DNA from: the human T2T-CHM13v2.0 reference genome, Homo sapiens
Reading direction: 5' to 3' (one strand)
Assembly (NCBI RefSeq): GCF_009914755.1
Contig: NC_060935.1
Length of the DNA stretch: 64,000 nucleotides
Shown here in pieces: positions 16,898-47,590 of the stretch; the first letter of the stretch is position 1, and each line of letters begins with the position of its first letter. The notes beneath the pieces are model-generated. The model was not told the DNA's origin and searched no databases. It saw only the letters and a list, made by a program, of their open reading frames with translations. Made by a program: the position numbers and the translations under genes.

Positions 16898-16945
16898 ATG
16901 GAGGTGGGAAGAACAAAAGGAACCAAAGTCCAAAAATCAGCTTTG
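16898..16945 (+). CDS. Putative first coding exon of the MS4A-like gene (MEVGRTKGTKVQKSAL)
   Basis: ATG in gttATGg context; 16 open codons; TTG|GTAAAA phase-0 donor; 306-nt intron to the next acceptor; in-frame upstream TGA at 16850-16852. TKV..L resembles the MS4A pre-TM1 segment. Confidence 0.45.
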
Positions 16946-17251
16946 GTAAAATAAGAGAAATCTAGGGAAGGTCAGAAATACCAAGTCTAGTTGCCTGTAG
17001 AACATAAAAGCTGTATATTCAGGATAAGATTGTTGACCTAGGTCAAGAATTCTTGACCATACAGGTACATAGTCATTATATCTACAAACTGCTCTGAAAT
17101 AATAAACTTTCCTTATCTGAGTTGAATGTTGAGAAATTTAAAATTCTGTTAGGTCATCACCTTCTGTCTTCATCATGGCTTTTTCTTGATGTGTATTCCT
17201 TTCAAAGGTTGAACTAAAATAATAATTAGTGATAGTGTTATTTTCTTCTAG

Positions 17252-17398
17252 GCGATACAAGTAATGACTGGCATACTTCTTCACTGCCTGGGACTGCTCT
17301 GGATGTATTTGTTACTCACACAAACTACTGCATTTGGAGCCACATATATTCCTCTTGCATTACTAACGGCATACCCATTTTGGTCATCCTTGCTTGTG
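17252..17398 (+). CDS. MS4A-like exon encoding TM1 and first half of TM2
   Basis: ttttcttctag acceptor; translates AIQVMTGILLHCLGLLWMYLLL...AYPFWSSLLV; donor GTG|GTAAAT at 17399 (alternative CTT|GTGGTA at 17396). Confidence 0.88.
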
Positions 17399-18019
17399 GT
17401 AAATAATCAAATTTCTGATTGTTATTCATTAATTTATTCGTTACATGTAATGACTGTTTATCAGTCAAGCAGTGTGCCAGAGACTGAACACTAAAAATGC
17501 ACAATCTCTATTCTCAAGGAACTCATTTTACCTGGTTGAAAATAATATACCAATATGAAAAAACTTAGATTCTTATCAGTGATATTCTTTAATAATAAGA
17601 GTCTATTTTGTTAAAAGGCTACATTTTACATTCTTCTAGGATATGGAGAAAAATGATAAGATGCCCAAGGGGCATTTTGGGAAAACAGAAAATGGTTGGT
17701 GACTATTCAACTGCCCATATGGTATTTATTTTGCCAGTGGGGCAAATAAAAAATGAGAGAGCATAACTGCTGAGGAAATAGTGGGATATATACAATTTGT
17801 GTAGGGAAAGAAGCATAAAATCTTTGTGTTGTATTCAAGAAGTATTTGGTAAAATTGAACAGAGATTTTGAAATTGAATTTTATTGTGACTGATAGTATG
17901 ATGAGTGATGTGCCATTGTCTTTAAAGGGGATATCATGAAGAAGATATTATGGTGGTTGATGTGCCATGTTTCCTACAAAATCCTGAGTAAAGTTTATTA
18001 TAATATCACATTTGGAGTT

Positions 18020-19430
18020 TGATCACTCAACCAGTACTTATTGAGTACTATGATGTGTCAGGCACTGTTTTAGGTGCCTGAGATACATTAGCAAACAAAA
18101 CAAAGATCCCACTTCTTATGGAGCTTTTATTCTAGCATGGTGTAGTATATTAGAAGATGATAAGGCCATAGAAGCAGAAAGAAAAAGAGTAGGCTAAGGG
18201 GGACTGGAATTTTTGGGAAAGTGGCAAAGGGATGTAGGTTATCATCTAAAATTGGATGGTTGAGGTAGGGCTCCTTGAAAAAGTGACTCTATTACTGATC
18301 TATTGTTATATAATAAACCACCAAAAACCCAGTGGCATACAATTACAAGCATTTATTTTTTACTCATGCAGACTTGGCAGAGATTCAACTGCTCTTGGCC
18401 TGGTTTCAAGCTATAGGACAGGTCCAGATCCACTCCATATGTATCTTATTGCCTTTAGACTAGTGACTACTAGAGGCATATTCTTCTCACAATGAAAAGC
18501 AAGAACACAAGAGGACAATCCTAATCACACAAGACCATTTCAAGCTTTGGCTTGGGTCATGTTTGTTAAAATCCCAGCTAAAACAAATAAAATGATCAAG
18601 TCCTAAATTAAAGAGCAGGGAAGCATAATCTAAGCACCATGAGATCACAGCAAGAGTATGAAAATATATTATTATTACCTAAAAGTAAAAAATTGTGACC
18701 AACAGTTCAAACTACCATAGTGACATTTGAGCAAAGACTTGAAAAAGTGATGGTTTTGACCACAAGGATATGCTGGGAAAGAACATCTCAGGAGAACAGT
18801 TAGAATGAATTCTTCAATGAAGGTTCCTAGAAAAATGTAGTCAGTATTTCTGGAACAGAGTGAGCAAGCACAATAGTAGTAGAAAACAAGTTAGAAAAAA
18901 TAATGGGGTGCCGGTTAATATAGGGCTATGTAAGCCATTGTAAAGATTTTAGCTTTTACTGTTAGTGAAATTGGAGTTATTATAGTGTTTCATAAACAGA
19001 GTTAAATAATCTGGCTTAGGTTTTAAAGGAATCACTTTGGTTTCTGTGTTGAAAAGAGAATGAAGGGGTCCAAAGAGACTTTTTAGAAAGCTACTTCAAA
19101 AGTCCAGGTGAGACTCAAACAAAGTTGTTGTAGTGAAGGTGGTGAAAGTAATGATGTAGATATATGTTGAGGTAGAGCCAATTTAATATCCTGATGGATT
19201 GGGTATGGAGTGTGAAAGAAGTTAAAGATAATGCCAGGGTTTTTGTTCAAGCTAATAGAAGGAATGACTTGACATCAACTGATACAGGGAAGACTGTGTA
19301 CAGAACTGGTTTTCAGAGGAAGACAATGAGTTTGCTTTGAAAATGTTGAGTTTGAAGTATTTATTTAATATTCAACTGGAGATGTCAAGTAGCCTGTTGG
19401 ACATGGAATGTAGAGTTCAGAAGACAGAAT
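18020..19430 (-). mobile_element. L2 containing an MLT1 LTR (about 18290-18718); resumes after 23460
   Basis: L2 3'-end motif ttattgagtact...caggcactgttttagg. Confidence 0.7.
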
Positions 19431-19439
19431 TAGAATAAA

Positions 19440-22400
19440 AGATACAGACTTGCAGAAAGGACAAGACTTCACCAACCAAGTATCTGCTGCCTTCAAGAGA
19501 CTCACCTAACACATAAGGAATCACATAAACTTAAAGGAAAGGGGTAGAAAAAGATGTTCCATGCAAATGGACACCAAAAGCTAGCAGGAGTAATATTCCT
19601 CTATGAGACAAAACAAACTTCAAAGGAACAGCAGTTAAAAAAGACAAAGATAGACCTTATATAATAATAAAAGGCCTTGTCCAACAAGAAAATATCACAG
19701 TCCTAAATATATACGCACCTAATGCTGGAGCTCCCAAATTTATAAAACAATTACTACTAGACCTAAGAAATGAGATAGCAACACAATAATAGGGGGGACT
19801 TCAATACTCCACTGGCAGCACTAGACAGGTCATCAAGACAGAAAATCGACAAAGAAACTATTGATTTAAACTATACCCTGGAACAAATTGACTTAACAGA
19901 TATTTACAAAACCATTGTACCCAACAACTGCAGAATATGCATTCTATTCATCAGCACATGGAACTTTCTCCAAGATAGACCAAATGATAGGCCACAAAAC
20001 AGGTCTCAATAAATTTAGGAAAACTGAAATAATATCAAGTATTCTCTCAGACCACGTGGAATAAAATTGGAAATCAACTCCAAAAGGGACCTTCAAAACC
20101 ATGCAAATACATGGAAATTAAATAACCTGCTCCTGAATGATCATTGGGTCAACAATGAAATCACAATGGAAATTACAAAATTCTTTGAACTGAATAATAG
20201 TGACACAAACTATCAAAACCTCTGGGATACAGCAAAGGCAGTACTAAGAAAAAAGTTCATACCCTTACATGCCTACATCAAAAAGTCTGAAAGAGCACAA
20301 ATAGACAATCTAAGGTCACACCTCAAGGAACTAGAGAAACAAGAACAAACCAAACACAAACCCAGCAGAAGAAAAGAAATAGCCAAGATTAGAGCAGAAC
20401 AAAATGAAATTGGGGGAAAAAAGCAATGCAAAAGATAAATGAAACAAAGAGCTGGCTCTTTGAAAAGGTAAATAAAATTGATAGACCATTAGCAAGAGTA
20501 ACCAAGAAAAGAGAGATGATCCAAATAAGCTCAATTAGAAATGAAATGGGAGATATTACAACTGAAACCACAGAAATACAAAAGTTAACTCAAGGCTACT
20601 ATGAACACCTTGTGCACATAAATTAGAAAACCTAGAGGAGATGGAAAAATTTCTGGAAATTTACTACCCTCTTAGATTAAACCAGGAAGATATAGAAGCT
20701 CTGAACATACCAAAAACAAGCAGCAAGATTAAAATGGTAATTAAAAATTACTAACAAAAAAAAAGCCCAGGACCAGTTGGATTCACAGCAGAATTCTATC
20801 AGACCTTCAAAGAAGAATTGGTACCAATCCTACTGACACAACTCCAAAAGACAGAGAAAGAGGGAATCCTCCCTAAATCATTCTATGAGGCCAGTATCAC
20901 CCCAATACCAAAACCAGGAAAAGGACATAACAAAAAAAGAAAACTACAGACAAATATCCCTGATGAACATAAATGCAAAAATCCTTAACAAAATACTAGC
21001 TAACCAAATCCAACAGCATATCAAAAAAGTAATCCACCATGATCAAGTGGGTTTCACACCAGGAAGGCAGGGGTGTTTTAACATACTCAAGTCAATAAAT
21101 GTGATACGCCACATAAACAGAATTAAAAACAAAAATCACATGATCATCTCAATAGATGCAGAAAAAGCATTTGACAAAATCCAGCATCACTTTATTATTA
21201 AAACCCTCAGCAAAATTGGCATACAAGGGACATACCTCAATGTAATAAAAGCCATCTAACAAATCTACAGCCAACATAATACTGAATGGGGAAAAGTTGA
21301 AAGCATTCCCTCTGAGAACTGGAACAAGACAAGGATGCTCACTCTCACCACTTCTATTCAACATAGTGCTGGAAGTCCTAGCCAGAGCAATCAGACAAGA
21401 GAAAGAAATAAAAGGCATCCAAATCAATAAAGAGGAAGTCAAACTCTTGCTGTTTCCTAATGATACAGTTGTATATCCAGAAAACCCTAATGACTCATCC
21501 AAAAAACTCTTAAAACTGGTAAATGAATTCAGCAAAGTTTCAGGATATAAAATTAATGTACACAAATCAGTAGCTCTGCTATACACCAACAGCAACCAAG
21601 CTGAGAAACAAATGAAGAACTCAACCCCTTTTACAATAGCTGCAAAAAAAATAAAATATTTAGGAGTACACCTAACTAAGGAGTTGAAAGACCTCTACAA
21701 TGAAAACTACAAAACACCACTAAAAGAAATCATAGATGACAGAAATAAATAGAAACACATCCCATGCTCATTTGCTGGGTAGAATCAGTATTTTGAAAAT
21801 GGCCATACTGCCAAAAGCAATCTACAAATTCAGCACAATTCCCATCAAAATACTACCATCGTTCCTCACAGAACTGGAAAAAAACAATCCTACAGTTCAT
21901 ATGGAACCAAAAAAAAAAAAAAAAGCCTACATAGCTAAAGCAAGATTAAGCAAAAACAACAGATCTGGAAGCATCATATTACCCAACTTCAAACTATACT
22001 ATAAAGCCCAAACAGCATGGCACTGGTATAAAAATAGGCACATAGACCAGTGGAACAGAATAGAGAACCCAGAAATAAAGCCAAATACTTACAGTTGGTG
22101 TATCTTTGACAAAGCAAACAAAAACATAAAGTGGGGAAAGGACACCCTATTTAACAAATGGTGCTGAGAGAATTGGCAAGCCACATATAGGAGAATGAAA
22201 CTGGACCCTCATCTCTCACCTTATTCAAAAATCAACTCAACATGGATCAAGGACTTAAATCTAAAAAAAAATATATAGAAGATAACATCGGAAGAACCCT
22301 TCTAGACATTGGCTTGGGCAAAGACTTCATGACCAAGAACCCAAAAGCAAATGCAACAAAAACAAAGATAAATAGGTGGGATTTAATTAAACTAAAGAGC

Positions 22401-23450
22401 TTCTGCACAGCAACAGGAACAGTCAGCAGAGTAAACATCAGAGTAAACAGACAACCCACAGAGTGGGAGAAAATCTTCACAATCTACACATCTGACACAG
22501 GACTAATATCCAGAATCTACAAGAAACTCAAACAAATTAGCAAGAAAAAATCAAACAGTCCCATCAAAAAGTGGGCTAAGGACATGAATACACAATTCTC
22601 AAAAGAAGATATACAAATGGCCAATAAACATATGAAAAAATGCTCAACATCACTAATGATCAGGGAAATGCAAATCAAAACCACAATGTGATACCACCTT
22701 ACTCCTGCAAGAATGGCCATAATAAAAAAATTAAAAAAAATAGATGTTGGCATGGATGCAGTGAAAAGGGAACACTTCTATGCTGGTGGGGGAATGTAAA
22801 CTAATACAACCATTATGGAAAACAGTGTGGAGAGTTCTTAAAGAACTAAAAGTAGAACTACGATTTGATCCAGTAATCCCACTGCTGGGTATCTACTCAG
22901 AGGAAAAAAAAAGGTCATACAAAAAAGATACTTGCACCCACATGTTTATAGCAGCACAATTTGCAATTGAAAAAATATGGAACCAGCCCAAATGTCCATC
23001 AATCTACAAGTAGATAAAGAAGCTGTGGTATACATTTACAATGGAATACTACTCAGCCATAAAAAGCAACAAATTAATGGCATTCACAACAACCTGGATG
23101 GAATTGGAGACTACTATTTTAAGTGAAGTAACTCAGGAATGAAAAACCAAACATTGTATGTTCTCACCCATAAGTGGGAGCTAAGCTATGAGGCTGCAAG
23201 GGCATAAGAATGATACAGTGGACTTTGGGGACTCAGGGGAAAGGGTGGGAGAGGGTGAGGGATAAAAGACTACAAATTGGGTTCAGTGTATACTGCTCAG
23301 GTGATGGGTGCACCAAAATCTCACAAGTCACCGCTAAAGAATTTACTCATGTAACCAAATACCACCTGTTCCCAAAAACCTATATAAATTTTTTAAAAAT
23401 AATAAATGTAATGACAAAAAAGCTTAAAAAAGTAAGAAATCTTTAAAAAA
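19440..23450 (+). mobile_element. L1PB, about 4 kb, nearly whole broken ORF2 plus 3'UTR
   Basis: ORFs 20067-23013 are frameshifted ORF2 pieces; L1PB 3' end; TSD tagaataaa at 19431 and 23451. Confidence 0.92.
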
Positions 23451-23546
23451 TAGAATAAAGAGTCATTGGCATCTAGTAATGAGACTAGATGAGATCACCA
23501 AAGAAATAAATAAACATAGAAAAGAAGAGATAACTAAGGACTAGAG

Positions 23547-23851
23547 CAGCACTGTCCAATACAATAGTCACATGTACCTACTGAACCTGGAAAATGCAAC
23601 TAAACTGCCCTGAGAAGTGCTGTAAAGATAAAATACATATAAGATTTCAAAACTTAGTATACATTTTAAAATGTAAAATATATAATTATTTTATAGTGAT
23701 TCTGTCTCGAAATAATTTTGGATATGTGAACTTATAGAAAATATATTATTAAAATAAGTTGTATATATTTCTTTTTAGTTTTCTTAATATGGCACTTGGA
23801 AACTTACAATTACATATGTTGCTTGCATTATATTTCTATTGGACAGCCCTA
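23547..23851. mobile_element. MER33/MER3-like hAT-Charlie MITE
   Basis: Inverted termini cagcactgtccaata ... tattggacagccct. Confidence 0.8.
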
Positions 23852-24017
23852 GACAATATTCTGACTGAGGACAGTGCTATGATTAGGTTTGTTTTAATAC
23901 TATCACTCTATGAGTAATAAGAGATTAGATTAGAGGAGTTAGAAGAGGCTACTGCAGTGATTCAGACAAGAAAAATGGGGCCTTAATTCAATTTAGAGGT
24001 GCCAAAAATATAGGTTC

Positions 24018-24189
24018 TGTCTTAGTCCATTTTGTGTTGCTGTAATAGAACATCACAGGCTAAGTAATTTATAAAAGAAAACAAATGTACTTCTCACAGT
24101 TCTTCGGGATGGGGACTCTAATATCAAGATGCTGGCATCTTGTGAGGGCCTTCATGCTGCATCGTCTCATGATGGAAAGTCTAAGGGCA
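24018..24189 (-). mobile_element. MST/MLT1A MaLR LTR fragment
   Basis: tgtcttagtccattttgtgttgct terminus; truncated at an Alu. Confidence 0.8.
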
Positions 24190-24442
24190 GGTCGGGCGCG
24201 GTGGCTCACGTCTGTAATCCCAGCACTTTGGGAGGCTGAAGTGGGTAGATCACGAGGTCAGGAGATCGAGACCATCCTGCCTACCACGGTGAAACCTTGC
24301 CTCTACTAAAAATACAAAAAATTAGCCAGGCATTGTGGCGGGCACCTGTAGTCCCAGCTACTCGGGAGGCTGAGCCGAGATCATGCCACTGCACTCCAGC
24401 CTGGGCCACAGAGCAAGACTCCATCTCGGGAAAAAAAAAAAA
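24190..24442 (+). mobile_element. AluSc/Y-like with right-arm deletion
   Basis: gaggctgag|ccgagatc junction at about 24374; no TSD. Confidence 0.93.
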
Positions 24443-26680
24443 TCAATGAAACAGGTAGTTGGTATTTTGCAAAGTTTAACAAAATTGACAAATGTTTAGA
24501 CAGACTAACCAGGAAAAAAAGAGAGAAGATTCAAATAAATAAAATCTCAAATTAAAAAGGAGACATTACAACTGATGTTGCAGAAATTCAAAAGATCATT
24601 AGTGGCTACTATGAGCAACTATATGCCAATAAATTGGAGAATCTAGAAGAAATGAACAAATTCCAAGATACATACAACCTACCGAGATTGAACCATAAAG
24701 AAACCCAAAACCTGAACAGACCAATAACAAGTAATGAGGTCAAAGCCATAGTAAAAAGTCTCTCAGTAAAGAAAAACCTGGGACCGATAGCTTAACTGAT
24801 GAATTCTACCAAACATTTAAAGATTCTACTCAATTCTACTCAAACTGTTTCAAAAAAACAGAGGAGAAGGGAATACTTCCAAAGTCATTCTATAAGGCTA
24901 GTAAAACCCTAATACCAAAACCAGACAAGGACACATCAAAAAAATAAAAAGAAAAAAAAAACTACAGGCCAATCTGATGAATATTGATGCAAAAATCCTC
25001 AACAAAATAATAGCAAACCAAATTCAACAATACATCAGAAAGATCATTCATCATGACCAAGTGGGATTTACCCCTGGGATGCAAGGATGAATAAACATAC
25101 CCAAATAAATCAACATAATACATTATATCAACAAAATGAAAAATAAAAACCATCAGATCACTTCAATTGATGCTGAAAAGTCATATGATAAAACCCAACA
25201 TCTCTTCATGATAAAACTCTCAAAAAACTGAGGATAAAAGGGACATACCTCAATATAATAAAAGTCACTTATGACAGACCCACAGCTAGCATACTGAATG
25301 GGGAAAAATGGAAAGCCTTTCCTCTAAGATCTGGAACACAACAAGGATGCCTACTGCCACCACTGTTATTTAACGTAGTACTGAAGTCCCAGCTAGAGCA
25401 ATCAGACAAGAGAAAGCTATGAAGGCCATCCAAATTGAAAAGAAAAAAGTCAAATTATTCTTGTTTGCACATCATATTGTCTTATATTTGGAAAAACCTA
25501 AAGACTCCACTAGAAAACTATTAAAACTGATAAACTCAGTAAAGTTTGCAGGATGCAACACCAACATACAAAAATCAGTAGCATTTCTATATGCCAACAG
25601 TGAACAATCTGAAAAAGAAATTTAAAAATTAATCTCATTTACAACAGCCACACATAAAATTGAATACCTAGAAATTAACTAGGGAACCAGGAAACAAATC
25701 CACACACCTAGAGTGAACATGTATTCAACAAAGGTGCCAAGAACATATGCTGGGAAAAAGACAGTCTCTTCAATAAATGGTGATGGGAAAACTGGATATC
25801 CATATGCAGAAGAATGAATATCTCTCACCATACACAAAAACCAAATCAAAATGGATTAAAGACAAATCTAAGACCTCAGACTATGAAATGACTACAAGAA
25901 AACATGAGGAAAATCTCCAGGACATTGGTTTGGGCAAAAATTTCTTGAGCAATACCTCACAAGCACAGGCAATCAGAGCAAACACGGACAAATGGGATCA
26001 CATCAAGTTAAAAAGCTGCTGCACAGCAAGGGACACAATCAACAAAGTGAAGACACAACCCACAGAATGGGAGAAAATGTTTGCAAACTACCCATCTGAC
26101 AAGGGATTCATAGCCAGAATATATAAGGAGCTCAAACAACTCTATAAGAAAAAAATCTAATAGTCTGATTTTAAAAAAGGGCAAAAGATTTCAGTAGACA
26201 TTTCTCAAAAGAAGACATACAAATGACAAACAGGCATATGAAAAGGTGCTCAACATCACTGATCATCAGAGAAATACAAATCAAAACTACAATGAAATAT
26301 CATCTCACCCCGGTGAAAATGGCTTATATCCAAAAGATAGGCACTAACAAATGCTGGTGACGATGTAGAGGAAAGGGAACCTTTGTACACTGTTCATGGG
26401 AATGTAAATTATTACACCCACTACGCAGAATAGTTTGGAGGTTCCTCGAAAACTAAAAATTCAGCTACTATATGATCCAGCAATCCCACTGCTACATATA
26501 TACCCAAAGGAAGGGAAATCAGTATGTTGAAGAGATATCTGCACTCTTATATTTATTGCAGCACTGTTTACAATAGCTAAGATTTGGAAGCAACCTAAGT
26601 GTACATAAACAGATGAATAAAGAAAATGTGGTGCATATACACAAAGGAGGACTATTCAACCATACAAAAGAATGAGATCC
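24443..26680 (+). mobile_element. L1MA ORF2/3'UTR fragment with internal deletion at about 25680
   Basis: ORF2-like ORFs at 25419 and 25777. Confidence 0.85.
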
Positions 26681-26681
26681 A

Positions 26682-27305
26682 CAACTGTAGCAGCTCTGCT
26701 CCCACCTCAGGCCTGCAACACAGGAGAGCACAATTCCAGTGCTCACTGCTGAGACACTTTCCACAATTCTAGCTGTGGAGGCTCCTAGCCCACTCCAGGG
26801 CAAGAACTCCCATCTCTGGCCCAAGACTATAATCCTTACGTGGCCATGCTGCAGGGTCACCATAGAATGACTGACTTTGTATGCACCCAGATTAAAAATG
26901 ATGTCCTGCTATTGGTCCTGGGTTTGGGAAAATGTCTGCAGCTTTTCCTAGCACCTTTCCCTCTCAGTGTCTCCAAGCTTCTCCCTAAGTTAGCTCCAGG
27001 GCTTGGGAGAAATAAAATGCTCCCCCTCAGCCTGGGTTGCTTGGATTTCCAGTGGAAAGATGAGTCACAGAGGGACGCTTTCTGCTTCTCTCACACAGTG
27101 GGACTTCACTCACTTTTATCAGCCAGACATCATCACGGGGACTGTTTTCCCATGCTTTCTTCTCCAGGATCTGGGTGTCCTTAACAACACCAGTGAGTTT
27201 CTGTTTTCCTTTTTGAATTAAAGCTCACAGAGTTGATCTTTATGCACTGTTTTTTTATTTCCAAGTTGCTAACGTATGGTAAAAGCCCCTAATCTGCCAT
27301 CTTGG
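26682..27305 (-). mobile_element. L1 (PB/MA-type) 5'UTR
   Basis: Ends gccatcttgg, the revcomp of the L1 5' YY1 motif ccaagatggc. Confidence 0.65.
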
Positions 27306-27364
27306 AAAAAAATCGAAACATTATATGTAACTATTACAACACTACAACAATAACACAATGTAAC

Positions 27365-27490
27365 AGACTATCCTCATTTTACCAATGAAAAAAGCAAAAC
27401 TAAGTTATAGGTTAAGTAATTTTCCTGAGTCACAGAGAAAGCAAAGAGCAAAGAACTCAACCTCAGATCCTTCTTACTTCAAAATTCTAT
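27365..27490 (-). mobile_element. MIR
   Basis: cctcatttta...aggttaagtaattttcctgagtcacag core. Confidence 0.55.
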
Positions 27491-28186
27491 TTAGTATTGA
27501 CATGTGAGTTTCCAGATTTTTCTGGGAAAACAATATCCCTCTCCCATACTACTAACTGACCTGTTCATTTCTTAATGCTGTGGAAAGTTTTATGTGTTCA
27601 TAAATGTTGCATCTGTGAGGAAAATAAATTTCTGATACACCATAACTGCCATCTTTCTAACAAGTGTCACGAAATGATGGAATATCTCAGAAAAAGCTAC
27701 TCATGGAAGACATTGTATAATTCTTCTATTTAAATATGTAAACTGAAGCATCAATATTTTATGAATGATATTTTCTATTAATAAAATATTTAAGCATTAT
27801 ATTAAAAGTATTTTCATATGAAGTCACCAAGATATAACATTTCCCAGTAGTAAATTCATTAATTGGGTGCATTTTCTTCTAATTCACATATTGGCTTAAT
27901 AAATTATGATTGACAAAAACTAAGGAAACACTGAAACTCCTTTTTCCATAAAGTCACTTCAGAATGCCCTTAGATTCTATTTCCAATACATATATTAAAT
28001 TAGTAGCCAGAGATTTCATGGCTTTCTCCCATCTCCACAAATAAAAAAAACCCTTGAATTATATCCTGAATGATTTTCTCAATGGTCCCATATTCTTTAT
28101 GTTAAAATGCTCCGGAATTCTCTTACTTTTTAAGTTTATACATAAACATAATGACTGGGTATTAATAAATGTGATCTTGTTTCCAG

Positions 28187-28243
28187 TTTATCTTCACGGG
28201 AGCATTTACAGTATCGTTAGAAAAGATATGTTCACCATTCTTG
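28187..28243 (+). CDS. MS4A-like 57-nt exon (end of TM2 and inner loop)
   Basis: cttgtttccag acceptor; FIFTGAFTVSLEKICSPFL; TTG|GTAAGT donor. Matches the short FIISG-type exon of MS4A genes. Too short for the ORF track. Confidence 0.88.
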
Positions 28244-31200
28244 GTAAGTCAGAATGCTTATAGCAGCTCTAGAGTTTTATTTGCCAAAAGAAGGAAAGTC
28301 AGTGCGTAGGCAGCATTGTCTGTGTGTCACTAGAAACCTATATATAATTGAAGAATAGATTTTTAAAATGTAAGAAATGTAAGTTTCCATTGCATTTTCA
28401 AACAAAAACAGAATACGTGCCAGTTACTGAAGTCATTGTTATATTTCATTAGTTATAAAAATAACTCAGGATGTATGAAGTTAATCAAGAAACTAAATTT
28501 CTACATCATAAATCATTTAATGTAAATTAAAATTCAATTAAGATGTAAATACAGCTATCTTGAAATGACCCAGTTTCTGTTATTACCTTCTTTTTCTCTT
28601 GCTTCTTTCTTCACATGTCTAGAAACTTTTAATTGTATGGAGGCTACTGTGTATGTGGTGTTTTAAAGAGTCTGGATCATGTTGATTTCCTTTAGTGAAT
28701 ATTGCATTTTGTATTGATAGGAAGTGAGGTGAAAGAACAAGAAATTAGAATAATTATGTATGTAAATGCTAGGAGATTGACTTCTGGAATGGCAGACTGA
28801 GAACTCCATGAAATCGTTCTTTAACAAAAACAGAGAAACCGCTGGCAAAACAACCAAAAGTAATGATTTCAAAGCATTGGAAATTAATCAAAGCCACAGC
28901 TAAAACAGAAAATTATCTAAGAGATACTAGTAAACCTCAGAAAAACGGAGAGATCTATAATGTTTTAATTTGAGGCTAATTTCCATCCCCTCTCCCTTCA
29001 AGCTCCTTGGCAGAGTATGTATGAAAAGCCAGCAGTATAGCAACCAGCTGAGAGGACCAACATCATGTGATGCTCTATTAAAAGTGCCATCATCTGAGCA
29101 CAGTCAATATTTTGTCTGAAATTGCATCTCTGTTCCCAGGATATTTTGGCTATTTTTTGGATAAAGATTTCCGCTCAGTGAAAACAAAGTCCTACCACTA
29201 GATGGCTTAAACACTATCAATCTGCTAGCAATAGCACAGCTTAATAAGACTATGAATTCAGGTAAATAAGGGCTTGGTCAGAAATTTAAAAGACGATCCT
29301 GAATAACTAGATAATCATAAGGAGCTTTGAAAAGCTCTGACATATTCTTGGAGATCTAAAGTCCCTCACAAATATGGAAAGCTATGTGCATGCCCAGGAA
29401 GCAACAAAGAAAGAAGAAAGGCCCACCACTCATTTACCTCTGGCTGACTATGAGGCCCTAGGCAAGGAAGAAGTGAAAGCTGAAGCTGTCTTATAAACTA
29501 ACTGAAGTTTTAAGCATATATTCTCATACACACTCTCCTTGGCAAAGGATTATTGACTGACATTAAATTACACTGAGCCAGGGATGGCTCCTAGGAAGCA
29601 GATAACCCATGGGCTTGACATTGAGGGAATAAAATATTTGCAGAATTAATCCAGGAAACTTAACAAAGACAAAGGAATAAGAAAAACAACAACAACAAAA
29701 GCAAAAATAGCAAACCCTGGGGGTGGGGAAGCAATTAAATACCAAATATGCTACAATGTATTATGTAAAATGTCAATTTTTCTAAAAAACATAAAACATG
29801 CGAAGAAACTGAAACATATTTTACATACACAGGAGAAAAAAAGCAACCAACAGAAAAATATTCCTATGGGGGCCAAAATTTGGTACTTTAACTACTCAAA
29901 GACTTTAAATTAGATCTTTTAAGTATGGTCAGAGAACCAAAAAAAAATTGTTAAAAGAATTAAAAGAAAGCATGAAAGTGATATGTCACCAAATACAGAA
30001 TATCAATAAAGAGATAGAAATTATAGATTTTAAAAAATTAATACATTAATTGGATTTCCCATAGAAATCACTTTAAAACATGACTGAAAGTATACACAAC
30101 AAGAAATAAGGCCATCTCCAGTGATGCCAGGCACAAGTTCAGCTCAAACCATCCTAGACTCCAGACTAGTCCTACGGACCCAGACTCTACACCTGCCCTA
30201 GCACCAGGCCAACCCTAAGCTGCAGGCCAGTCCCTGTAGCCCAAGTCTCCAGAGGACCCAGGGTCTAGGCCTGCTCCAGCAGACCCAAGGTCCAGGCCCA
30301 CCCCAGTGCACCCCATTGCCAAAATGAGCCACATGGAATGAGGCACCATGACCACCCTTGCAGACCCATTCCAATGCCCATGGACTCAGGACCCAGACTC
30401 ATCCTTACAGACTTGGTTTAGACTAGCCCCAGCACCAGCCCAGCCCCATGGACTCAAAATGCAGACCCATATCAGTGGTCCCAGGTGCCAGGCCCATCAC
30501 AACATCTGAGTGACCCCTAAACAGTCAGGCTCAAGGTTCACACCAGTATCAGCTCAGCTCTTGTAGACTCAGGCTTCAGGCTGGCCCCCATGGATACAGG
30601 CCTCTGGCCCATCCCCATATGCCAATCAACAAGTCCACCATGGTAGATCAAGGCTACAGGCACAACTCCACAGAACCAGGATTCAGGCCTACCCACCTGC
30701 TAACCTGGTATCAGGCCATCTTGCCTGAGGACTCCAGCAACAAGCCAGCCATACCAGATGTCCTGCCCAGAATCTTTGAATGAGCTCACTGGTGAAAGTC
30801 TTTTCCAGACAAAGCCAGCATGAAAAAACTGGAATAAGGCTCCTACTTCAAATGGACAGATATCAATATAAGGCAAAAAAAGATGAGAAAACAAGAAGAC
30901 ATACCACCAAAAGAACACAATATGCTCCCAGTAGCTGACCCCAAAGAAATGGAAATATATGAACTTCATCATCAATAATTCAAAATAATTGTTATTGAAA
31001 GGCTCAAAGAACGTCAAGAAAATGCATATAATTTTATAAAATCAGGAAAACAATAAATGACCAAAATGAGAAATTTTACAAGAGTGAATAAAATTATTTT
31101 TAAAAATTAAATTCTGAAGCTGAAAAATAATGAATGAAATTAAAAATACAATAGAGAGCAGCAACAACAGAATTCATCAAGGAGAAGAAAGACTGTGACA

Positions 31201-33778: not shown

Positions 33779-33816
33779 ATCGCTTCTCGGCTTTTAGGCT
33801 AAGATCAAGTGTAGTA
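33779..33816 (+). pseudogene. U2 snRNA 5' fragment (nt 1-38), tailless retrocopy
   Basis: atcgcttctcggcttttaggctaagatcaagtgtagta has 2 mismatches to U2 nt 1-38; 17-bp TSD at 33762-33778 and 33816-33832 (1 mismatch). Confidence 0.93.
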
Positions 33817-35357: not shown

Positions 35358-35918
<561 letters not shown>

Positions 35919-36074
35919 TGAAACCAAAAAAAGACACAAATTCATAACAAAAAACATATAAAAGTATAAAACTTGATGGTATAAATAATACGGTCATATT
36001 CAGAATATTCTACTACTGTAATGGTAGTACATAAAGCAATTTTATCTCTAATATGAGTGTTAAGAGACAAAACT

Positions 36075-36191
36075 TTTTTTTATTTTATTTTATTATTATT
36101 ATACTTTAAGTTTTAGGGTACATGTGCACAATGTGCAGGTTAGTTACATATGTATACATGTGCCATGCTGGTGTGCTGCACCCATTAACTC
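36075..36191 (-). mobile_element. Very short L1PA 3' end
   Basis: T-rich tail plus about 95 nt of L1PA end; TSD aagagacaaaact/aaaagacaaaact. Confidence 0.9.
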
Positions 36192-36722
36192 AAAAGACAA
36201 AACTATTAAAACAACTATAACTACAATAAACTAAGGGATACAAATTACAAAAGATATACTTTTTTGACATCCAAATAACAAAATAGGGGAAAAAGTAAAA
36301 TGTAGACATTTTGTATTGAAAGTTAAGTTGTTATCAGCTTTAAAAGCCTGGTACGACTACAAAATAATTTATTTGTGCCTCATGGTAACCACAATACAAA
36401 AACTTATAATACTTGCACAAAATATAAAAACCAAGAAATCAAATCATACCACCATAGAAAATCATCAAATCACAAAAATCAGTAAGAGAGGAGGAAAGAA
36501 ACAAAGGATGGTTTAAAAAGAAAATAAACCACAAAACAGCAATAAGAGTTCTTATATATTAATAATTACCTGGAATGTAAATTGATTAAATTCTCCAATA
36601 AAAAAATTAAGTAACTAAATGGACTGAAAAACAAAATGCAACTATATGCTGCCTACAAGACACTCGCTTCACCTTTAAGGACACATATAGGCTGAAAGTG
36701 AAGGGGTGAAGAAAGATATTTC

Positions 36723-37582
36723 AAAAAGTGGGCGAAGGATATGAACAGACGCTTCTCAAAAGAAGACATTTATGCAGCCAACAGACACATGCAAAAATGC
36801 TCATCATCACTGGCCATCAGAGAAATGCAAATCAAAACCACAATGAGATACCACCTCACACCAGTTAGAATGGCAATCATTAAAAAGTCAGGAAACAACA
36901 GGTGCTGGAGAGGATGTGGAGAAATAGGAACACTTTTACACTGTTAGTGGGACTGTAAACTAGTTCAACCATTGTGGAAGACAGTGTGGTGATTCCTCAA
37001 GGATCTAGAACTAGAAATACCATTTGACCCAGCCATCCCATTACTGGGTATATACCCAAAGGATTATAAATCATGCTGCTATAAAGACACATGCACACGT
37101 ATGTTTATTGTGGCACTATTCACAATAACAAAGACTTGGAACCAACCCAGATGTCCATCAATGATAGACTGGATTAAGAAAATGTGGCACATATACACCA
37201 TGGAATACTATGCAGCCATAAAAAAGGATGAGTTTATGTCCTTTGTAGGGACATGGATGAAGCTGGAAACCATCATTCTCAGCAAACTATCGCAAGAACA
37301 AAAAAACAAACACCTCATGTTCTCACTCATAGGTGGGAAATGAACAATGAGAACACTTGGACACAGGAAGGGGAACATCACACACTGGAGCCTGTCATGA
37401 GGTGAGGGGAGGGGGAAGGAAAGCATTAGGAGATATATCTAATGTAAATGATGAGTTAATGAGTGCAGCGCACCAACATGGCACATGTATACATATGTAA
37501 CAAACCTGCATGTTGTGCACATGTACCCTAGAACTTAAAGTATAATTAAAAACAAAAAGAATTTTAAAAACTGAGAAAAAAA
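36723..37582 (+). mobile_element. L1PA 3' fragment
   Basis: 14-bp TSD aagaaagatatttc at 36709 and 37583. Confidence 0.93.
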
Positions 37583-38036
37583 AAGAAAGATATTTCCTGA
37601 AAACAGAAGCCAAAAAGAGAAGAAATAGCATACTTAACACCACATGTCAACAAGTATGTGAAGAAAACAAGCCCTTCATATTGTCATTGGAAGTGTAAAA
37701 TGACACCATGACCTTGTAAAAATATGTGGTCATTCATTCAAAATTTAAATATATACCTGCCATATGACCCAGCAATTCATTGCTAGGCACTTACCTCTGA
37801 GAAATAAAAACGTATGTCAAAACCAGAAAACAAAAACTTGCCCATAGTTTATAGGAGTTTATTCACAATAGCCAAAACCTGAAATTGAACTAGGCAAGAA
37901 AACTTTTATCTGAAATGTTTTAGTTATTTTAGAAATAAAGCCTGGGTTTTTTTAAATAAAGGTTAATAACTGATTATTTTCTCTGGCTGCAATAAAAGTA
38001 TAAAAGTGTTCCTTAAAATATTCTTTATACCATCTC

Positions 38037-38385
<349 letters not shown>

Positions 38386-38484
38386 TCATAGTAGATGGCA
38401 GGGTCATAGAGGGTAGCTTATCCCATGCCTCACACTTTTTTACTGCATCTGGCTCTCATAGTGCCCCTTCATGCTCTTCTTTCT

Positions 38485-39110
38485 TAATTTTTAATAGCTT
38501 TATTGAGGCATAATTGACATATAATAATCAATAAGCTGTACATATTTAAAGTACACAATTTGGTAAGCCGTTAATACAATAAGACAGTGCATATGTTACC
38601 CCCAACAGTTTTCTCTGCCCCTTTGTCATCCCTCTTGCTTATCCCTCCTCAAAACCCTCCCTCCCCCAGGCATCTACTTATCTGCTTTTTATCACTACAG
38701 ATTAATTTGCATTCTCTAGAATTTTATACACATGGAATAATACAGTATATATGCTTTCTTGTTTCACTTATTTCATTCAGCAGAATTATCCTGAGATTCA
38801 TCCATGTATATAAATTATCAATCCCTTTTTTATTTCTAAGTGATATTCAATTTTATGGATATATCACAATTCATTTATCCATTCACCTATTGATGGAACT
38901 TGCATTGTTTCCAGTTTTGAGCTTTTACAAATAAAGCTACTATGAACATTTACAAGTCTTTGTACAGACGTATGCCCTCATTTCTCTTTAGTAAATACCT
39001 GAGTCATAGGGTATATGCATGTTTAACTTTTCAAGAAACTGCTAACCTGTTTTCCAAAGTGGTTGTAGCATATTACATTTCCACTCACAGGCTGAGTATT
39101 CCAGTTCCTC
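38485..39110 (-). mobile_element. L1M 3'UTR
   Basis: agctttattgaggcataattgacata 3' end. Confidence 0.7.
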
Positions 39111-39694
39111 CATACTTTCACTCTCTTCTTACAGTGCACTTATTGTATACCTTTTTGTATTAATGATTTATCAAATTGTGTACTTTAAATATGTCCAATA
39201 CCACCCCAACCGAGAGCAGGAATCAAAACAAGTGTTTCTGCTTGTTTTATTCAGATAAGTTTTTCCCAGAAAAACTTCATGCTCCAGAGAAGAACATCTG
39301 CTCCGTGGGGTCTTATTCATGCATTTCCTCAACAAGGTGGCTCTTTTCTAAATAAAAACAGATTATTTTGACATAGCTATTGCCTACTGTATAGTTGAGA
39401 AAATGAAATATTTACCAAATATACTTCATTTTAAAGACTGGATTATGTCAACATGCCAAAATTTACTAAGCAATACAGTTGTATGTTTACATAATAATAA
39501 ACATTTTATTTTAATTTGTCTTTCTTTAAGGGAGATTTGTTACAAAAGAATAAATTAGTTGAGATCACTATACAACATACAACAGCAACTTCGATAAACA
39601 CATCCTTTATCCAGTGAAACTGGTTTCAGAATTCAGTAGTTTAAGCTTTTGTAGTTATTATCTAATTCATATTAGATAGAAGGAAATACACATA

Positions 39695-43802
<4,108 letters not shown>

Positions 43803-43817
<15 letters not shown>

Positions 43818-44360
43818 TACAGGATATATTATATATATGATATCATATATATCATATATATCATATGCATAATTATATATAATATATATAATGATATATA
43901 ATCATATATCATAATTATATGATATATATGATATATTATATTTATATATGATATATGATATCATATATTATATATCCTGTACAAACTAGATAATACTAGA
44001 TAATTTCCAATGACCAAGTAATTATATATGGTATGTATCATATATTATATTATTATAATATTATTTTTATTATATATTATATTATATATTATATTATTAT
44101 AATAGTATTATATTATTATATATTATATATTATATATTCTTTGTCTATAAATGTAGACAAAGAAATAAAATATAGTATATTTTATATTATATATTATATA
44201 TCATATATATTATATGTCATATATATCATATATATTATATATCATATATATCATATTATATATCATATATTATATATAATATTATATATTATCTTATATT
44301 ATATTATATATTATATATTCTTTTTCTATAAATGTAGACAAAGAAATAAATATAATAAAT
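43803..44360. repeat. AT-rich low-complexity repeat with inverted and direct repeats
   Basis: (TA)-rich; 27-bp perfect inverted arms at 43803-43829 and 43970-43996; direct repeats offset by 181 bp. Confidence 0.9.
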
Positions 44361-45018
44361 AAGGATCTTCTTAATATCATATCACCTCTCTGATTCTATA
44401 CATGGACAAAGTGCAATTATGCAGCAGCATTATACATATGCATGCAGTTCTCTACCATCTTCAAGATAAAATCCTAAATATCTAGCTAGATAGCACCTAT
44501 CTTTCCAACAAAATTTTCTACATCTCTCCTTCTTCCACTCCAAAATGAACCATAACAAACTCCTGAAATGTTAGTTCTCTGATATCCTGAAACTGTATGG
44601 CACTATGAATTTGCCTAAATTATTACAGTTTTTTACATTCTATTCACATTTAACATGCACTTGTTTGTCTTCCTCAATAGTCTGAAAATTCCTTGAGTGC
44701 AGAGACCATTTCTTTCCTTTTTATCAACTAATGCAGAGCATAGATTGCAGAGTATAGAATAGGCATTCAATAAATTGTCAGTGGATAAATAAACTTGTTT
44801 ATTATATAAAAAGTTTTATCATCTCCAAAATTGTTTATTCCTATTGGGATCCTGACAAATCTGCAGTTCTGACAGTCTTTGTAATGATCCTACTATGCTG
44901 AAAAGATCAGAATTTATATAAACCTTTTACTTTTAAAAAAACTTTTACTTTAATATACTTGTCAATGATGCATATGGATAATTTCCAATGACCAAATGAT
45001 TATTTTTCTCTATTGCAG

Positions 45019-45138
45019 GTGTCTTATACTTTAGTAGCAAACATCGTAAGTGCCTGTATTTCAGTGACTGGTCTGCTTTTACTATCAGTTGAGTTTATAA
45101 TATATAGTAAAAGTTCAAAAAATTCTCTTTGGCCACAT
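45019..45138 (+). CDS. MS4A-like exon encoding TM3 and second extracellular loop
   Basis: tttttctctattgcag acceptor; 40 open codons VSYTLVANIVSACISVTGLLLLSVEFIIY...LWPH; CAT|GTATGT donor. Confidence 0.88.
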
Positions 45139-47479
45139 GTATGTACCAGGTTTCTGTGAGAATCTCATCACAATTTTAGAATTATGTGTTAAATATTTAC
45201 TAAGTGGTCAGAGTACTTAAGTACAATGCAAGTCATGGAGGTGACCCTCACCATTAGTTTACCTCATGGTATATGCATATATTAAAAATGTGAATCAAAC
45301 TACAAGTTATATTTCTAAACCTAAGACCAACCAAAACCTCAAGTAAACAAATGAAAGGTATTATACATATTAATAGATGCATTTTGAGTAACTAAGCATT
45401 ATATTCAATTCTGGACCCACCTGATAGCCATGATATTTTTACGATGGGCAGCTCAGTTCATTCCAGGTACCTGCATCTCTGAGGTCAGTTCTCCCAGGCC
45501 TTAAAAGATCAAGTTTGTTATAGCAAGACTTGGTCTTCCAAGAAGGAACTGGCATACTCATGTACCTGTGATACCCAAGGGCTTATGTTCAATGTCAGGG
45601 CTGTAGTTTACCGACAGAATAAAGCTGAACTCTGTACATGTATGTAATTTTGAATGCACGTACTCAGTTCTATATCGTTCATGACTATGTGGACATTTTT
45701 GCACTGCCTGCTTTGAGTCTGTCAGTTGTTCAGCAGGTCTGTGGGAGTCTAACTGTGTTCACATTTGCATTTCAATATCTGTGTATATCTATGTTCCCAT
45801 TCATGTGGAACTGTGGACATATGTGCATTTATCTGTATACATTCGTTGGTGTAGAGAGAAGGGGCTAGGAGGGCAAGAAGGCAGAAGTCAGTGCTAAGCA
45901 AGTTGTGCAGAAATTGAAGCGATAAGGGCCAAAGTCTTCTCTAGGATTTCGGTCCTTCTGCTCTATCCCATCTGCCCAGGGCTTGATGAAGGGCAAAATA
46001 GTGGGAACTTTTACCAATACTTAGAAATCAGCTTTTCTGAATTGAACCCATTGGATATTGCCTGTATTTAAATTCCTAACTAATTAAGTAAACTCTCCTT
46101 ACTTCAACATCCAAAACTCTTGGTTAATTATCTAGTTGCAAAGAATACACCAGTTTGCATTTTATTGGATTTTTCTTATTTCTATGTAGCTTTGAAAGTG
46201 ATTTTACAGTGAGTGCAATGGTAAACCTCCTTAGGAACGATTTATGTCTCTGATTCAATAAAGAAATGAGTTTAGAAATTTTAAACTACTTGCTCAGAGT
46301 CACGTGGCTAGTCACTTACAGATCATTTTTTCTAATGCAGAATGGTTTTAAATTCTAAATTATCTTACCCCACAAAATGGAGCTTTTACAAAAATCAATT
46401 CAGTGGCACATCAAAGAATCATTTTGCTGCTGCGGAGAATGCTAATATTTTATGACACATACCCTGATGGATACCTTAAAGTGGTATCTTAAATAAATAG
46501 AAACATAAAGATATTGCTTAAGATTATATTTGTATAACAAGAATGGCTCATTTTATTGGATTGATCTTTAATTATGATCTTAACTCTTTCATTTTTCTAA
46601 TTTATCTCTTAAACTATCATATTCATATTAGTAGGAAATCCAGAATCTTCCTTCTGAGGGCCCCTCCCTGTTGACCCTCTCAAGTTACTCAAAACCACTG
46701 GGATCCAAAGGTTCGATATTGACTCCAAGCCCTTAGTTAACAGAGTCATGTAGTATCTCATCAGTCCACCAGTGTGCCCTTAATTTCCACTGCTATGGTT
46801 CAGTTACTATTAAATGACGCCATTATTTAACACTGATTTGAGTAGCCCATGGTGACCTTGTCATAAAAGTGCACTGAGTACTGAAGAGGCTTGGGCTTCC
46901 AATATTACAGATTCTGTATTCTTGTCTCTAACCCAGCTATACTGTCAGGATATGGGTCTATTGGAGCTTATAGACAGAGGCACAATCCCAGGAGGAAATT
47001 CCTACCCCCAGGTCACATCAGCCCTTGTGTTGAGTCCAGGTTACAAGTCCAAACATTCTTTTCTTTCATTGTTTCTCTTTAGTGTCCTTTCCTATCAACA
47101 GGGCAAATTTATGTAAGTTTCTCTATTAAATAAGTTCTATAACACTAAACCTCAAGGGTGTCACAATTCCATCTTCCCCAGAGATTTATTGGCCTCAATG
47201 AAAATTTCCTGTTATTATCCACAACAATAAACAGGAAAACACAATCAATGATTCTCATCATCCATTTGGCAGAAATATATCAGTATATCATCATCCTCAA
47301 TAATTATCCATTGTAATTACAATTAAAAAATATTTAAAATACTATTGTTGAGGGTGGAGGATAGGGTGGGTAGTTTTTCTCTTCTATTTTTCTTCTTCAA
47401 TTTTAAGATACCTTTATTATTTCTAAAGTGCTCACATAGAAAGATCTGTAAGGAATGTACATTTTCTTTGTGGATACAG

Positions 47480-47590
47480 AAAAGTGGCAAACTCCTTTTG
47501 GAATATCTGTTCATATTAACCATCTTGGAGTTGTTTGTGGCAAGTATAGTCAGCCACTGGGCATCCCAAGCAAAAAAGAGAAGAAGATAA
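47480..47590 (+). CDS. MS4A-like exon encoding TM4 and short basic tail
   Basis: ttttctttgtggatacag acceptor; KSGKLLLEYLFILTILELFVASIVSHWASQAKKRRR then TAA ending at 47590 (tail of track ORF 47345..47590). Confidence 0.85.
   Translation, partial: KSGKLLLEYLFILTILELFVASIVSHWASQAKKRRR

What the first reader, a model, noticed from the sequence alone, without database searches (positions are those of the whole stretch)
16898..47590. Hidden intact four-TM MS4A protein at a locus probably annotated as a pseudogene
Seen: five phase-0 exons across 30.7 kb splice into an uninterrupted 160-aa ORF (140 aa from Met 17264) with four hydrophobic segments and canonical GT-AG sites. The ORF track shows only pieces of two exons. 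Known: exon layout and motifs match the MS4A/CD20 family, several members of which are testis-enriched, and MS4A13 also starts within TM1. Inference: this is probably MS4A19P, and it may encode an unannotated membrane protein or be only recently inactivated.
Basis: partly seen in the sequence, partly recalled or inferred. Interest (0 to 1): 0.85.

Follow-up and report, generated by a model that had tools for sequence, protein, structure and literature searches.

The report
MS4A19P: intact exons, start exon missing
The open reading frame is real, but it is the already annotated human pseudogene MS4A19P: four of its five coding exons are intact, and the ancestral exon that carries the start codon cannot be found anywhere in this human genome.

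Summary
The five segments join into a 160-codon open frame, or 140 aa from Met 17264, with GT/AG at every junction.

Exons 2-5 (17252-47590) are the true coding exons of MS4A19. They match predicted MS4A proteins of chimpanzee, orang-utan, gibbons, and Old and New World monkeys exon for exon.

Orthologues from primates, carnivores, bats, xenarthrans and rodents all start with a conserved 16-aa exon (MPRNRLW..EETRMLG). That exon was not found in the window, in the 30 kb upstream, or genome-wide (positive control).

Intact exons 2-5 say little. Under full neutrality since the chimpanzee split they would stay open with P about 0.62.

Best reading: a young 5'-truncated unitary pseudogene, confidence 0.7. 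Translation from Met 17264, as in neighbouring MS4A13, is not excluded (about 0.12-0.15). Interest is low to moderate.

The parts
16898..16945 (+). Probably not a coding exon of this gene.
Evidence: It is in frame with exon 2. The donor is weak and there are 38 equally good candidates in the 17 kb upstream. An out-of-frame ATG lies 5 nt upstream at 16893. Spliced at the same donor, that ATG runs into a stop early in exon 2. One macaque model (P0011) starts at the ATG 16893 equivalent in the other frame: 11 of 13 aa identical to the human translation, E 2.3e-4.
17252..17398 (+). Coding exon 2 of MS4A19: TM1 and the first part of TM2. It holds Met 17264 in the conserved AIQ(I/V)M motif.
   Evidence: Identity to primate proteins over this exon runs from 78% (macaque model P0011) to 94% (chimpanzee P0002). 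Pfam CD20 PF04103 gives E 0.0066 and 17 bits for this exon alone. Acceptor is ttcttctag; tandem donor is GTGGTAAAT.
28187..28243 (+). Coding exon 3 (57 nt, 19 aa): the end of TM2 and the short cytoplasmic turn.
   Evidence: Acceptor is ttgtttccag and donor is GTAAGT. 18 of 19 aa are identical to chimpanzee and orang-utan. The one difference, R to C, is human-specific.
45019..45138 (+). Coding exon 4 (40 aa): TM3 and the start of the short outer loop.
   Evidence: 39 of 40 aa are identical to chimpanzee. The difference, I to T in TM3, is human-specific. Acceptor is ctctattgcag and donor is GTATGT.
47480..47590 (+). Coding exon 5 (36 aa plus TAA): the rest of the loop, TM4 and a basic tail.
   Evidence: 35 of 36 aa are identical to chimpanzee; the difference, S to L, is derived in human and also seen in the langur. 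RefSeq's pseudogene end at 47519 coincides with the end of the short alternative frame ('..NICSY', 47484-47516) that other primate models use.
50325..50492 (+). Downstream exon used by some primate models and one unnamed record after exon 5. It lies beyond the stop of the TM4 frame, so for that frame it would be 3' untranslated.
   Evidence: tblastn of P0024 (54 of 56 aa, with one stop in human) and of P0003. It overlaps the minus-strand lncRNA exon 50332-50490 in the hub table.

Best explanation
This is the human remnant of MS4A19. MS4A19 is a small (about 159 aa) four-pass membrane protein gene of the CD20/MS4A family. It is predicted intact in many other mammals and has a named rat counterpart, Ms4a19. 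In the human genome the ancestral first coding exon is gone; that exon carries the start codon and 16 N-terminal cytoplasmic residues. Chimpanzee models still have it, so the loss falls on the human lineage, within roughly the last 6-7 million years. Coding exons 2-5 and their splice sites are untouched simply because too little time has passed for neutral decay to break them.

Shown: exons 2-5 are intact, the orthologues exist, and the start exon was not found by several searches, one with a positive control. Inferred: that the exon was lost by deletion, that this ended production of the normal protein, and the timing.
For: Orthologues:
- 13 primate proteins match exon 2 at E 7e-20 to 3e-13.
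- The 159-aa siamang protein (P0009) and langur protein (P0010, a cluster of 18 member sequences) equal a 16-aa first exon plus human exons 2-5, junction for junction.
- The same 16-aa start (MP..(E/K)E.R.LG) is present in sea lion, mink, meerkat, two bats, armadillo, tamandua, chinchilla, mouse and rat 'Ms4a19'.

Searches for that start exon in human:
- tblastn against the window: the only hit is a paralogous exon at 60156-60203, downstream of the gene.
- tblastn against the 30 kb upstream: best E 0.13, with two stops.
- Genome-wide degenerate pattern for codons 4-15, up to 3 mismatches: 0 hits.
- Pattern for codons 1-11, up to 3 mismatches: 2 hits, on chr7 and chr19, equal to the reversed-pattern control of 2.
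- Pattern for codons 10-16 plus GT, up to 1 mismatch: 9 hits against 19 for the control. The only exact hit, and the only one near this locus, is the paralogous exon.
- Positive control of the same design finds the paralogous exon, 1 of 1.

Other points:
- The genome holds no second good copy of the gene.
- Simulated neutral decay gives P = 0.62 that exons 2-5 stay open with intact splice dinucleotides over the whole human branch.
- Three amino-acid changes are derived in human (R to C, I to T in TM3, S to L). The first two are unique to human; the third is also seen in the langur. Chimpanzee has one, plus a one-residue insertion.
- RefSeq lists the locus as a pseudogene whose span begins at exon 2 (hub table).
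Against: - Four exons, seven splice dinucleotides and the stop codon are all intact.
- An in-frame ATG exon lies 306 nt upstream, with G at -3 and at +4.
- One macaque model puts a first exon in that same stretch.
- The neighbouring gene MS4A13, listed as protein coding in the hub table, begins at the homologous Met inside TM1. Loss of the N-terminal exon therefore need not end translation.
- The absence of the start exon rests on patterns back-translated from orthologous proteins, not on a DNA alignment with an ape genome.
- Only one human haplotype (CHM13) was examined.
- No expression data could be consulted.
Confidence: 0.7

Rival explanations
1. The locus still encodes a membrane protein. 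A transcript from an alternative 5' exon, either the reader's 16898-16945 or an untranslated one, is spliced to exons 2-5. It is translated from ATG 16898 (160 aa) or from Met 17264 (140 aa), giving a four-pass MS4A protein with a shortened or replaced N-terminus.
For: - The frame is open with canonical splice sites.
- ATG 16898 has G at -3 and +4.
- Met 17264 sits in the conserved AIQ(I/V)M motif.
- MS4A13's TM1 exon has the same layout (..TIQI|M..) and its mole-rat protein starts at that Met.
- A macaque model begins in the 16893 stretch. Another primate model (P0013) begins at the TM1 Met.
Against: - The exon 1 donor is weak and chance supplies 38 equal candidates.
- An out-of-frame ATG 5 nt upstream would give a short dead-end frame.
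- The peptide is not conserved: the macaque model reads the stretch in another frame.
- An open frame is expected anyway for a young pseudogene, P 0.62.
- Human carries three derived changes at sites conserved in other primates.
- No transcript is given for the locus in RefSeq (hub table).
- No paper in the library names the locus.
Confidence: 0.15
2. The gene was already decaying before the human lineage. MS4A19 is under little or no constraint in apes or catarrhines, and the 'proteins' of other primates are automatic models of an open but dying frame. The human exon loss would then be just one more lesion.
For: - Amino-acid divergence equals or exceeds my neutral expectation even for a non-human pair. 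Siamang-langur is 25 of 159 (15.7%), against 12.7% expected (2.5-97.5% range 7.7-18.2%). Human-langur is 27 of 143 (18.9%).
- None of the 3 chimpanzee models and none of the 2 orang-utan models joins a complete exon 4 to exon 5. They read into the intron or use internal donors.
- The 2 New World monkey models end in a different frame of exon 5, without TM4.
Against: - Full 158-159-aa frames persist in siamang, in an Old World monkey cluster of 18 sequences, and in carnivores, bats and xenarthrans; mouse has 161 aa.
- Under neutrality a single lineage keeps exons 2-5 open with P 0.09 since the Old World monkey split and 0.015 since the New World monkey split.
- The neutral distances I used are recalled values, so the ratio is rough.
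- Fast protein evolution is also what positive selection would give.
Confidence: 0.1
3. The start exon is present in humans but was missed. It might be polymorphically deleted in CHM13, or changed beyond what the patterns tolerate. The gene would then be intact in at least some people.
For: Only one haplotype was searched, and the patterns were derived from proteins rather than DNA.
Against: - Human and chimpanzee orthologous exons normally differ by about 1%.
- The three overlapping patterns between them would tolerate a single indel or up to 3 substitutions, and the control worked.
- tblastn in all frames over 47 kb upstream found no fragment.
- The curated gene type is pseudogene (hub table).
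Confidence: 0.05

Closest known systems
MS4A19 orthologues: rat 'Ms4a19' (P0067), mouse LOC69416 (P0042), and predicted primate, carnivore, bat and xenarthran proteins of 158-162 aa
   Same: Same five-exon coding layout and the same position in the MS4A cluster between MS4A13 and MS4A8 (hub table). Human exons 2-5 differ from the siamang protein at 17 of 143 aligned residues. Each of exons 3, 4 and 5 differs from chimpanzee at 1 residue.
   Different: The human locus lacks the conserved 16-aa first coding exon with the start codon. It also carries three derived substitutions.
MS4A13, the neighbouring gene upstream, listed as protein coding
   Same: Its TM1 exon has the same acceptor-plus-motif layout (..TIQI M IGIF.. 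against ..AIQV M TGIL..).
   Different: MS4A13 is a different paralogue. I did not see its human coding annotation or any expression data, so it is a precedent for how such a gene can start, not evidence that MS4A19P does so.
CD20 (MS4A1) and the Fc epsilon RI beta chain (MS4A2), the members with solved structures
   Same: A profile of the orthologues hits Fc epsilon RI beta at E 5e-17 and CD20 at E 2e-10. The AlphaFold model of the siamang orthologue (pLDDT 81.9) has these as its top 9 structural matches, TM-score up to 0.70. Pfam CD20 scores 62.6 bits against a cut-off of 27.9.
   Different: The protein is much smaller, with about 16 aa of N-terminal tail, a very short outer loop and a roughly 10-aa basic C-terminus. 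It has no ITAM-like or long cytoplasmic regions. No function is known for it.
LINC00301, the next locus downstream
   Same: It is also an MS4A-derived locus broken in human. Its exon 2 holds a paralogous MS4A start exon (60156-60203) identical, 16 of 16, to the start of an orang-utan 162-aa MS4A protein.
   Different: It is a different paralogue. It keeps the start exon and a TM3 exon but lacks detectable TM1-TM2 exons, the reverse pattern of MS4A19P.

Membership tests
MS4A / CD20-like family (Pfam PF04103) | Sequence match to the family profile above the curated cut-off | tested here: inconclusive
   The human exons could only be scanned one at a time. Exon 2 alone gives CD20 at E 0.0066 and 17 bits, below the 27.9-bit cut-off; the exon 4 and exon 5 pieces give no CD20 hit. 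The orthologues pass clearly: 5 of 5 scanned, at 48-63 bits.
MS4A / CD20-like family (Pfam PF04103) | Four membrane-spanning helices with both ends cytoplasmic and a short first loop | tested here: met
   Hydropathy of the human exon 2-5 product gives hydrophobic stretches at about 2-23, 33-51, 62-97 and 109-136. The AlphaFold model of the siamang orthologue has four long helices. Topology itself was not tested.
MS4A / CD20-like family (Pfam PF04103) | Fold similar to solved CD20 and Fc epsilon RI beta | tested here: met
   Tested on the siamang orthologue as a stand-in. The top 9 Foldseek matches are Fc epsilon RI beta and CD20 chains; the first 4 have E below 0.001 and the best TM-score is 0.70.
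MS4A19 orthologue group | Exon-for-exon correspondence and highest similarity to MS4A19-type proteins at the syntenic place | tested here: met
   All four exons match primate proteins at the same junctions. The own-genome search finds no other good copy. A rat protein named Ms4a19 shares the N-terminal exon type and the exon 3-5 layout. The position between MS4A13 and MS4A8 comes from the hub table.
MS4A19 orthologue group | Complete coding sequence including the conserved first coding exon with the start codon | tested here: not met
   The exon was not found in the window, in the 30 kb upstream, or genome-wide. The control pattern finds the paralogous exon.
Unitary pseudogene (a lost gene with no working copy in the same genome) | Intact orthologues elsewhere, no functional duplicate in the same genome, and a disabling lesion | tested here: inconclusive
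   Orthologues with full frames exist, but only as predictions. No second copy was found. The lesion is loss of the start exon. Whether that loss disables the gene depends on alternative starts, which cannot be tested here.

The most novel reading that the evidence does not exclude
Loss of the ancestral start exon did not kill the gene. Human MS4A19P would be transcribed from a new 5' exon and translated from Met 17264, as its neighbour MS4A13 is from the homologous Met, or from ATG 16898. That would give a human-specific N-terminally remodelled four-pass MS4A protein that current annotation misses.
Probability: 0.12. Interest if true: 0.55.

Novelty: already known. Interest (0 to 1): 0.28.

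Why it matters
The locus is already annotated as a pseudogene, so the main result is a correction: an open, well-spliced frame is not evidence of a hidden gene when the pseudogene is young.

Two details seem to be unpublished. The only visible lesion in the human copy is the missing start exon, which chimpanzee models still carry. That would make MS4A19 a candidate human-lineage gene loss in a family with immune and chemosensory roles. No paper in the library contains 'MS4A19P' or 'Ms4a19'.

It would matter more if the truncated gene proved to be expressed and translated.

Tried and rejected
- Searching solved structures with exon 2 alone gave only chance hits, best E 1.3 for a fumarate reductase subunit. 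The profile of orthologues was needed.
- Pfam on single exons was weak or empty.
- A 6-aa match to the start exon at window 4427-4444 lies in repeat-like sequence with no ATG or EETRMLG around it. I rejected it as chance.
- A match in the upstream 30 kb (8 of 15 aa, two stops, E 0.13) lies inside MS4A13 and is far too diverged for a human-chimpanzee orthologue. Rejected.
- The exon at 60156-60203 was considered as a displaced start exon of this gene. It was rejected because it is only 9 of 16 identical to the chimpanzee start, lies downstream of exon 5, and is 16 of 16 identical to the start of a different orang-utan MS4A protein.
- True dN/dS could not be computed because no primate DNA is available here. 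I used amino-acid divergence against a simulated neutral expectation, with recalled neutral distances.
- The donor-site matrix was also recalled from textbook frequencies.
- Earlier findings of this scan were not open to the session.
- Literature searches found nothing on the locus: 'MS4A19P' 0 papers; 'Ms4a19' 0; MS4A13 + MS4A18 + pseudogene 0. 'Unitary pseudogene' + MS4A gave 1 paper and LINC00301 + MS4A gave 2; judged from the search listings only, these were unrelated.
- The spliced human protein was not submitted to Pfam, structure prediction or database searches. The siamang orthologue served as a stand-in.


Full report
**Observation.** Their lengths are 48, 147, 57, 120 and 111 nt. Joined, they give 160 codons and a stop with no internal stop. 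AG precedes exons 2-5 and GT follows exons 1-4. The second Met (ATG 17264) leaves 140 aa, and the junction peptide NSLWPHK is present. The stop-to-stop ORF list shows exons 2, 4 and 5 only as parts of longer frames, and the 19-aa exon 3 not at all. I found exon 3 independently among 346 open AG..GT segments between exons 2 and 4. It combines a pyrimidine-rich acceptor with a GTAAGT donor.

**What the exons are.**
- Exon 2 alone gives a weak hit to Pfam CD20 (E 0.0066, 17 bits) and nothing in the PDB.
- A database search with exon 2 returned 13 primate proteins at E 7e-20 to 3e-13. They come from chimpanzee, orang-utan, two gibbons, langur, two macaques and capuchin, and most carry PF04103.
- tblastn of six of them against the window places their parts exactly on exons 2, 3, 4 and 5.
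- Further searches added sea lion, mink, meerkat, bats, armadillo, tamandua, rabbit, pika and rodents. These include a rat protein named Ms4a19 and mouse LOC69416.
- The orthologues score 48-63 bits on Pfam CD20 against a cut-off of 27.9 (5 of 5 scanned).
- Their profile hits Fc epsilon RI beta (E 5e-17) and CD20 (E 2e-10) among solved structures.
- An AlphaFold model of the siamang protein (pLDDT 81.9, pTM 0.75, four long helices) has those two proteins as its nine best structural matches.

The family assignment and the identity with MS4A19P are sound.

**The first exon.** Every full-length orthologue begins with a conserved 16-aa exon: MPRNRLWIREETRMLG in apes and New World monkeys, with close variants in Old World monkeys, carnivores, bats, xenarthrans and rodents. 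I looked for the conserved exon in five ways.
- tblastn against the window found only 60156-60203. That stretch is 9 of 16 identical and lies 12.6 kb downstream of exon 5, inside LINC00301 exon 2.
- tblastn against the 30 kb upstream, reaching into MS4A13, found nothing credible (best E 0.13, with two stops).
- A genome-wide degenerate pattern for codons 4-15 with up to 3 mismatches gave 0 hits.
- The pattern for codons 1-11 gave 2 hits, on chr7 and chr19. That equals the reversed-pattern control of 2.
- The pattern for codons 10-16 plus GT, with up to 1 mismatch, gave 9 hits against 19 for the control. The only exact hit, and the only one in this region, is the 60156-60203 exon.

A control pattern of the same design recovers that exon, 1 of 1. 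Chimpanzee models from two sources carry the exon (P0001, P0002). A human orthologue should differ by about 1%, so I conclude that it is missing from this human genome.

The 60156-60203 exon belongs to a different paralogue. It is 16 of 16 identical to the start of an orang-utan 162-aa MS4A protein, P0043.

- Its donor (TTG|GTAAAA) scores -0.42 on a matrix I recalled from textbook frequencies. On the same matrix exon 3 scores 5.0 and exon 4 scores 2.3.
- 38 ATG-to-GT phase-0 open candidates with an equal or better donor lie in the 17 kb upstream, and 5 lie in the nearest 2 kb.
- An out-of-frame ATG sits 5 nt upstream. Spliced at the same donor, it stops early in exon 2.
- One macaque model (P0011) does begin in this stretch, but from the other ATG and frame. 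The stretch may be transcribed in primates, but the peptide is not conserved.
- In favour of an alternative start, ATG 16898 has G at -3 and +4.
- Also in favour, the neighbouring MS4A13 has the same TM1-exon layout, and its mole-rat protein starts at the Met homologous to 17264.

**Does an intact frame mean function?** I simulated neutral substitutions and indels on exons 2-5 and their 14 splice bases. The nucleotide distances were recalled values.

| Time since | P(exons 2-5 still open) |
|---|---|
| Human-chimpanzee split | 0.62 |
| Orang-utan split | 0.28 |
| Old World monkey split | 0.09 |
| New World monkey split | 0.015 |

(All.) So intactness in human is uninformative. Persistence of full frames in many other mammals, by contrast, does argue for function there.

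Human carries three derived amino-acid changes: R to C in exon 3, I to T in TM3, and S to L in exon 5. The first two are unique to human; the third is shared with the langur. Chimpanzee has one, plus a one-residue insertion. These numbers are too small to test.

Amino-acid divergence is high throughout.

| Pair | Observed | Neutral expectation |
|---|---|---|
| Human-siamang | 17 of 143 (11.9%) | about 8.8% |
| Human-langur | 27 of 143 (18.9%) | about 12.7% |
| Siamang-langur | 25 of 159 (15.7%) | about 12.7% |
| Sea lion-mink | 25 of 158 (15.8%) | about 22% |

(All.) This protein evolves very fast in catarrhines whether or not the start exon is present. The proxy therefore cannot single out the human branch, and it leaves room for earlier relaxation in apes. 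In line with that, none of the 3 chimpanzee models or the 2 orang-utan models joins a complete exon 4 to exon 5.

**Verdict.** The most likely reading (0.7) is a young, 5'-truncated unitary pseudogene. The start exon was lost on the human lineage and exons 2-5 have not yet decayed. The rivals are:
- continued translation from an alternative start (0.15);
- decay that began before the human lineage (0.10);
- a missed or polymorphic start exon (0.05).

**Smaller points.**
- RefSeq's end coordinate, 47519, coincides with the end of the alternative exon 5 frame that some primate models use.
- Some models continue to a further exon at 50325-50492.

**Literature.** No paper in the library contains 'MS4A19P' or 'Ms4a19'. 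Three further searches gave nothing relevant, judged from search listings only. Supplementary tables of expression atlases were not searched and could name the locus.

Noticed in passing
window 60156-60203 (inside LINC00301 exon 2, 60106-60203) and 67436-67555 just past the window (L030): LINC00301 looks like the human remnant of a second MS4A paralogue. Its exon 2 holds an MS4A start exon (ATG, 16 codons, GTAAGA donor) that is 16 of 16 identical to the start of an orang-utan 162-aa MS4A protein (P0043). A TM3-type exon follows 7.2 kb downstream and is about 37 of 40 identical. No TM1-TM2, 19-aa or TM4 exon was detected between window 50001 and 84000. The locus extends further, so TM4 may lie beyond what I fetched.
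   Followed up: partly
window -42777..-42646 (G000 chr11, loci L028/L029), the MS4A13 TM1 exon: The MS4A13 TM1 exon starts with ..cacag|ACT ATC CAG ATT ATG.., that is T-I-Q-I-M. This is the same layout as exon 2 of MS4A19P, and the mole-rat MS4A13 protein starts at that Met. MS4A13 thus seems to have dispensed with an N-terminal coding exon.
   Followed up: partly
window 47598 onward and 50325-50492 (+): A GTGAGT donor just after the exon 5 stop codon, read from the sequence printed, may link exon 5 to the plus-strand exon at 50325-50492 that some primate models use. In human that exon has a stop in the frame one unnamed record uses. It overlaps the annotated minus-strand lncRNA exon 50332-50490.
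   Followed up: partly
window 17396-17404: Tandem in-phase donors GTG|GTAAAT lie 3 nt apart at the end of exon 2. Orthologous proteins imply use of the first, which is weak on my matrix. The second scores better and would add one Val.
   Followed up: no
window 4340-4540: Repeat-like sequence with reiterated 'gaagtcagtgagacc' units. It produced a chance 6-aa match to the start-exon query.
   Followed up: no
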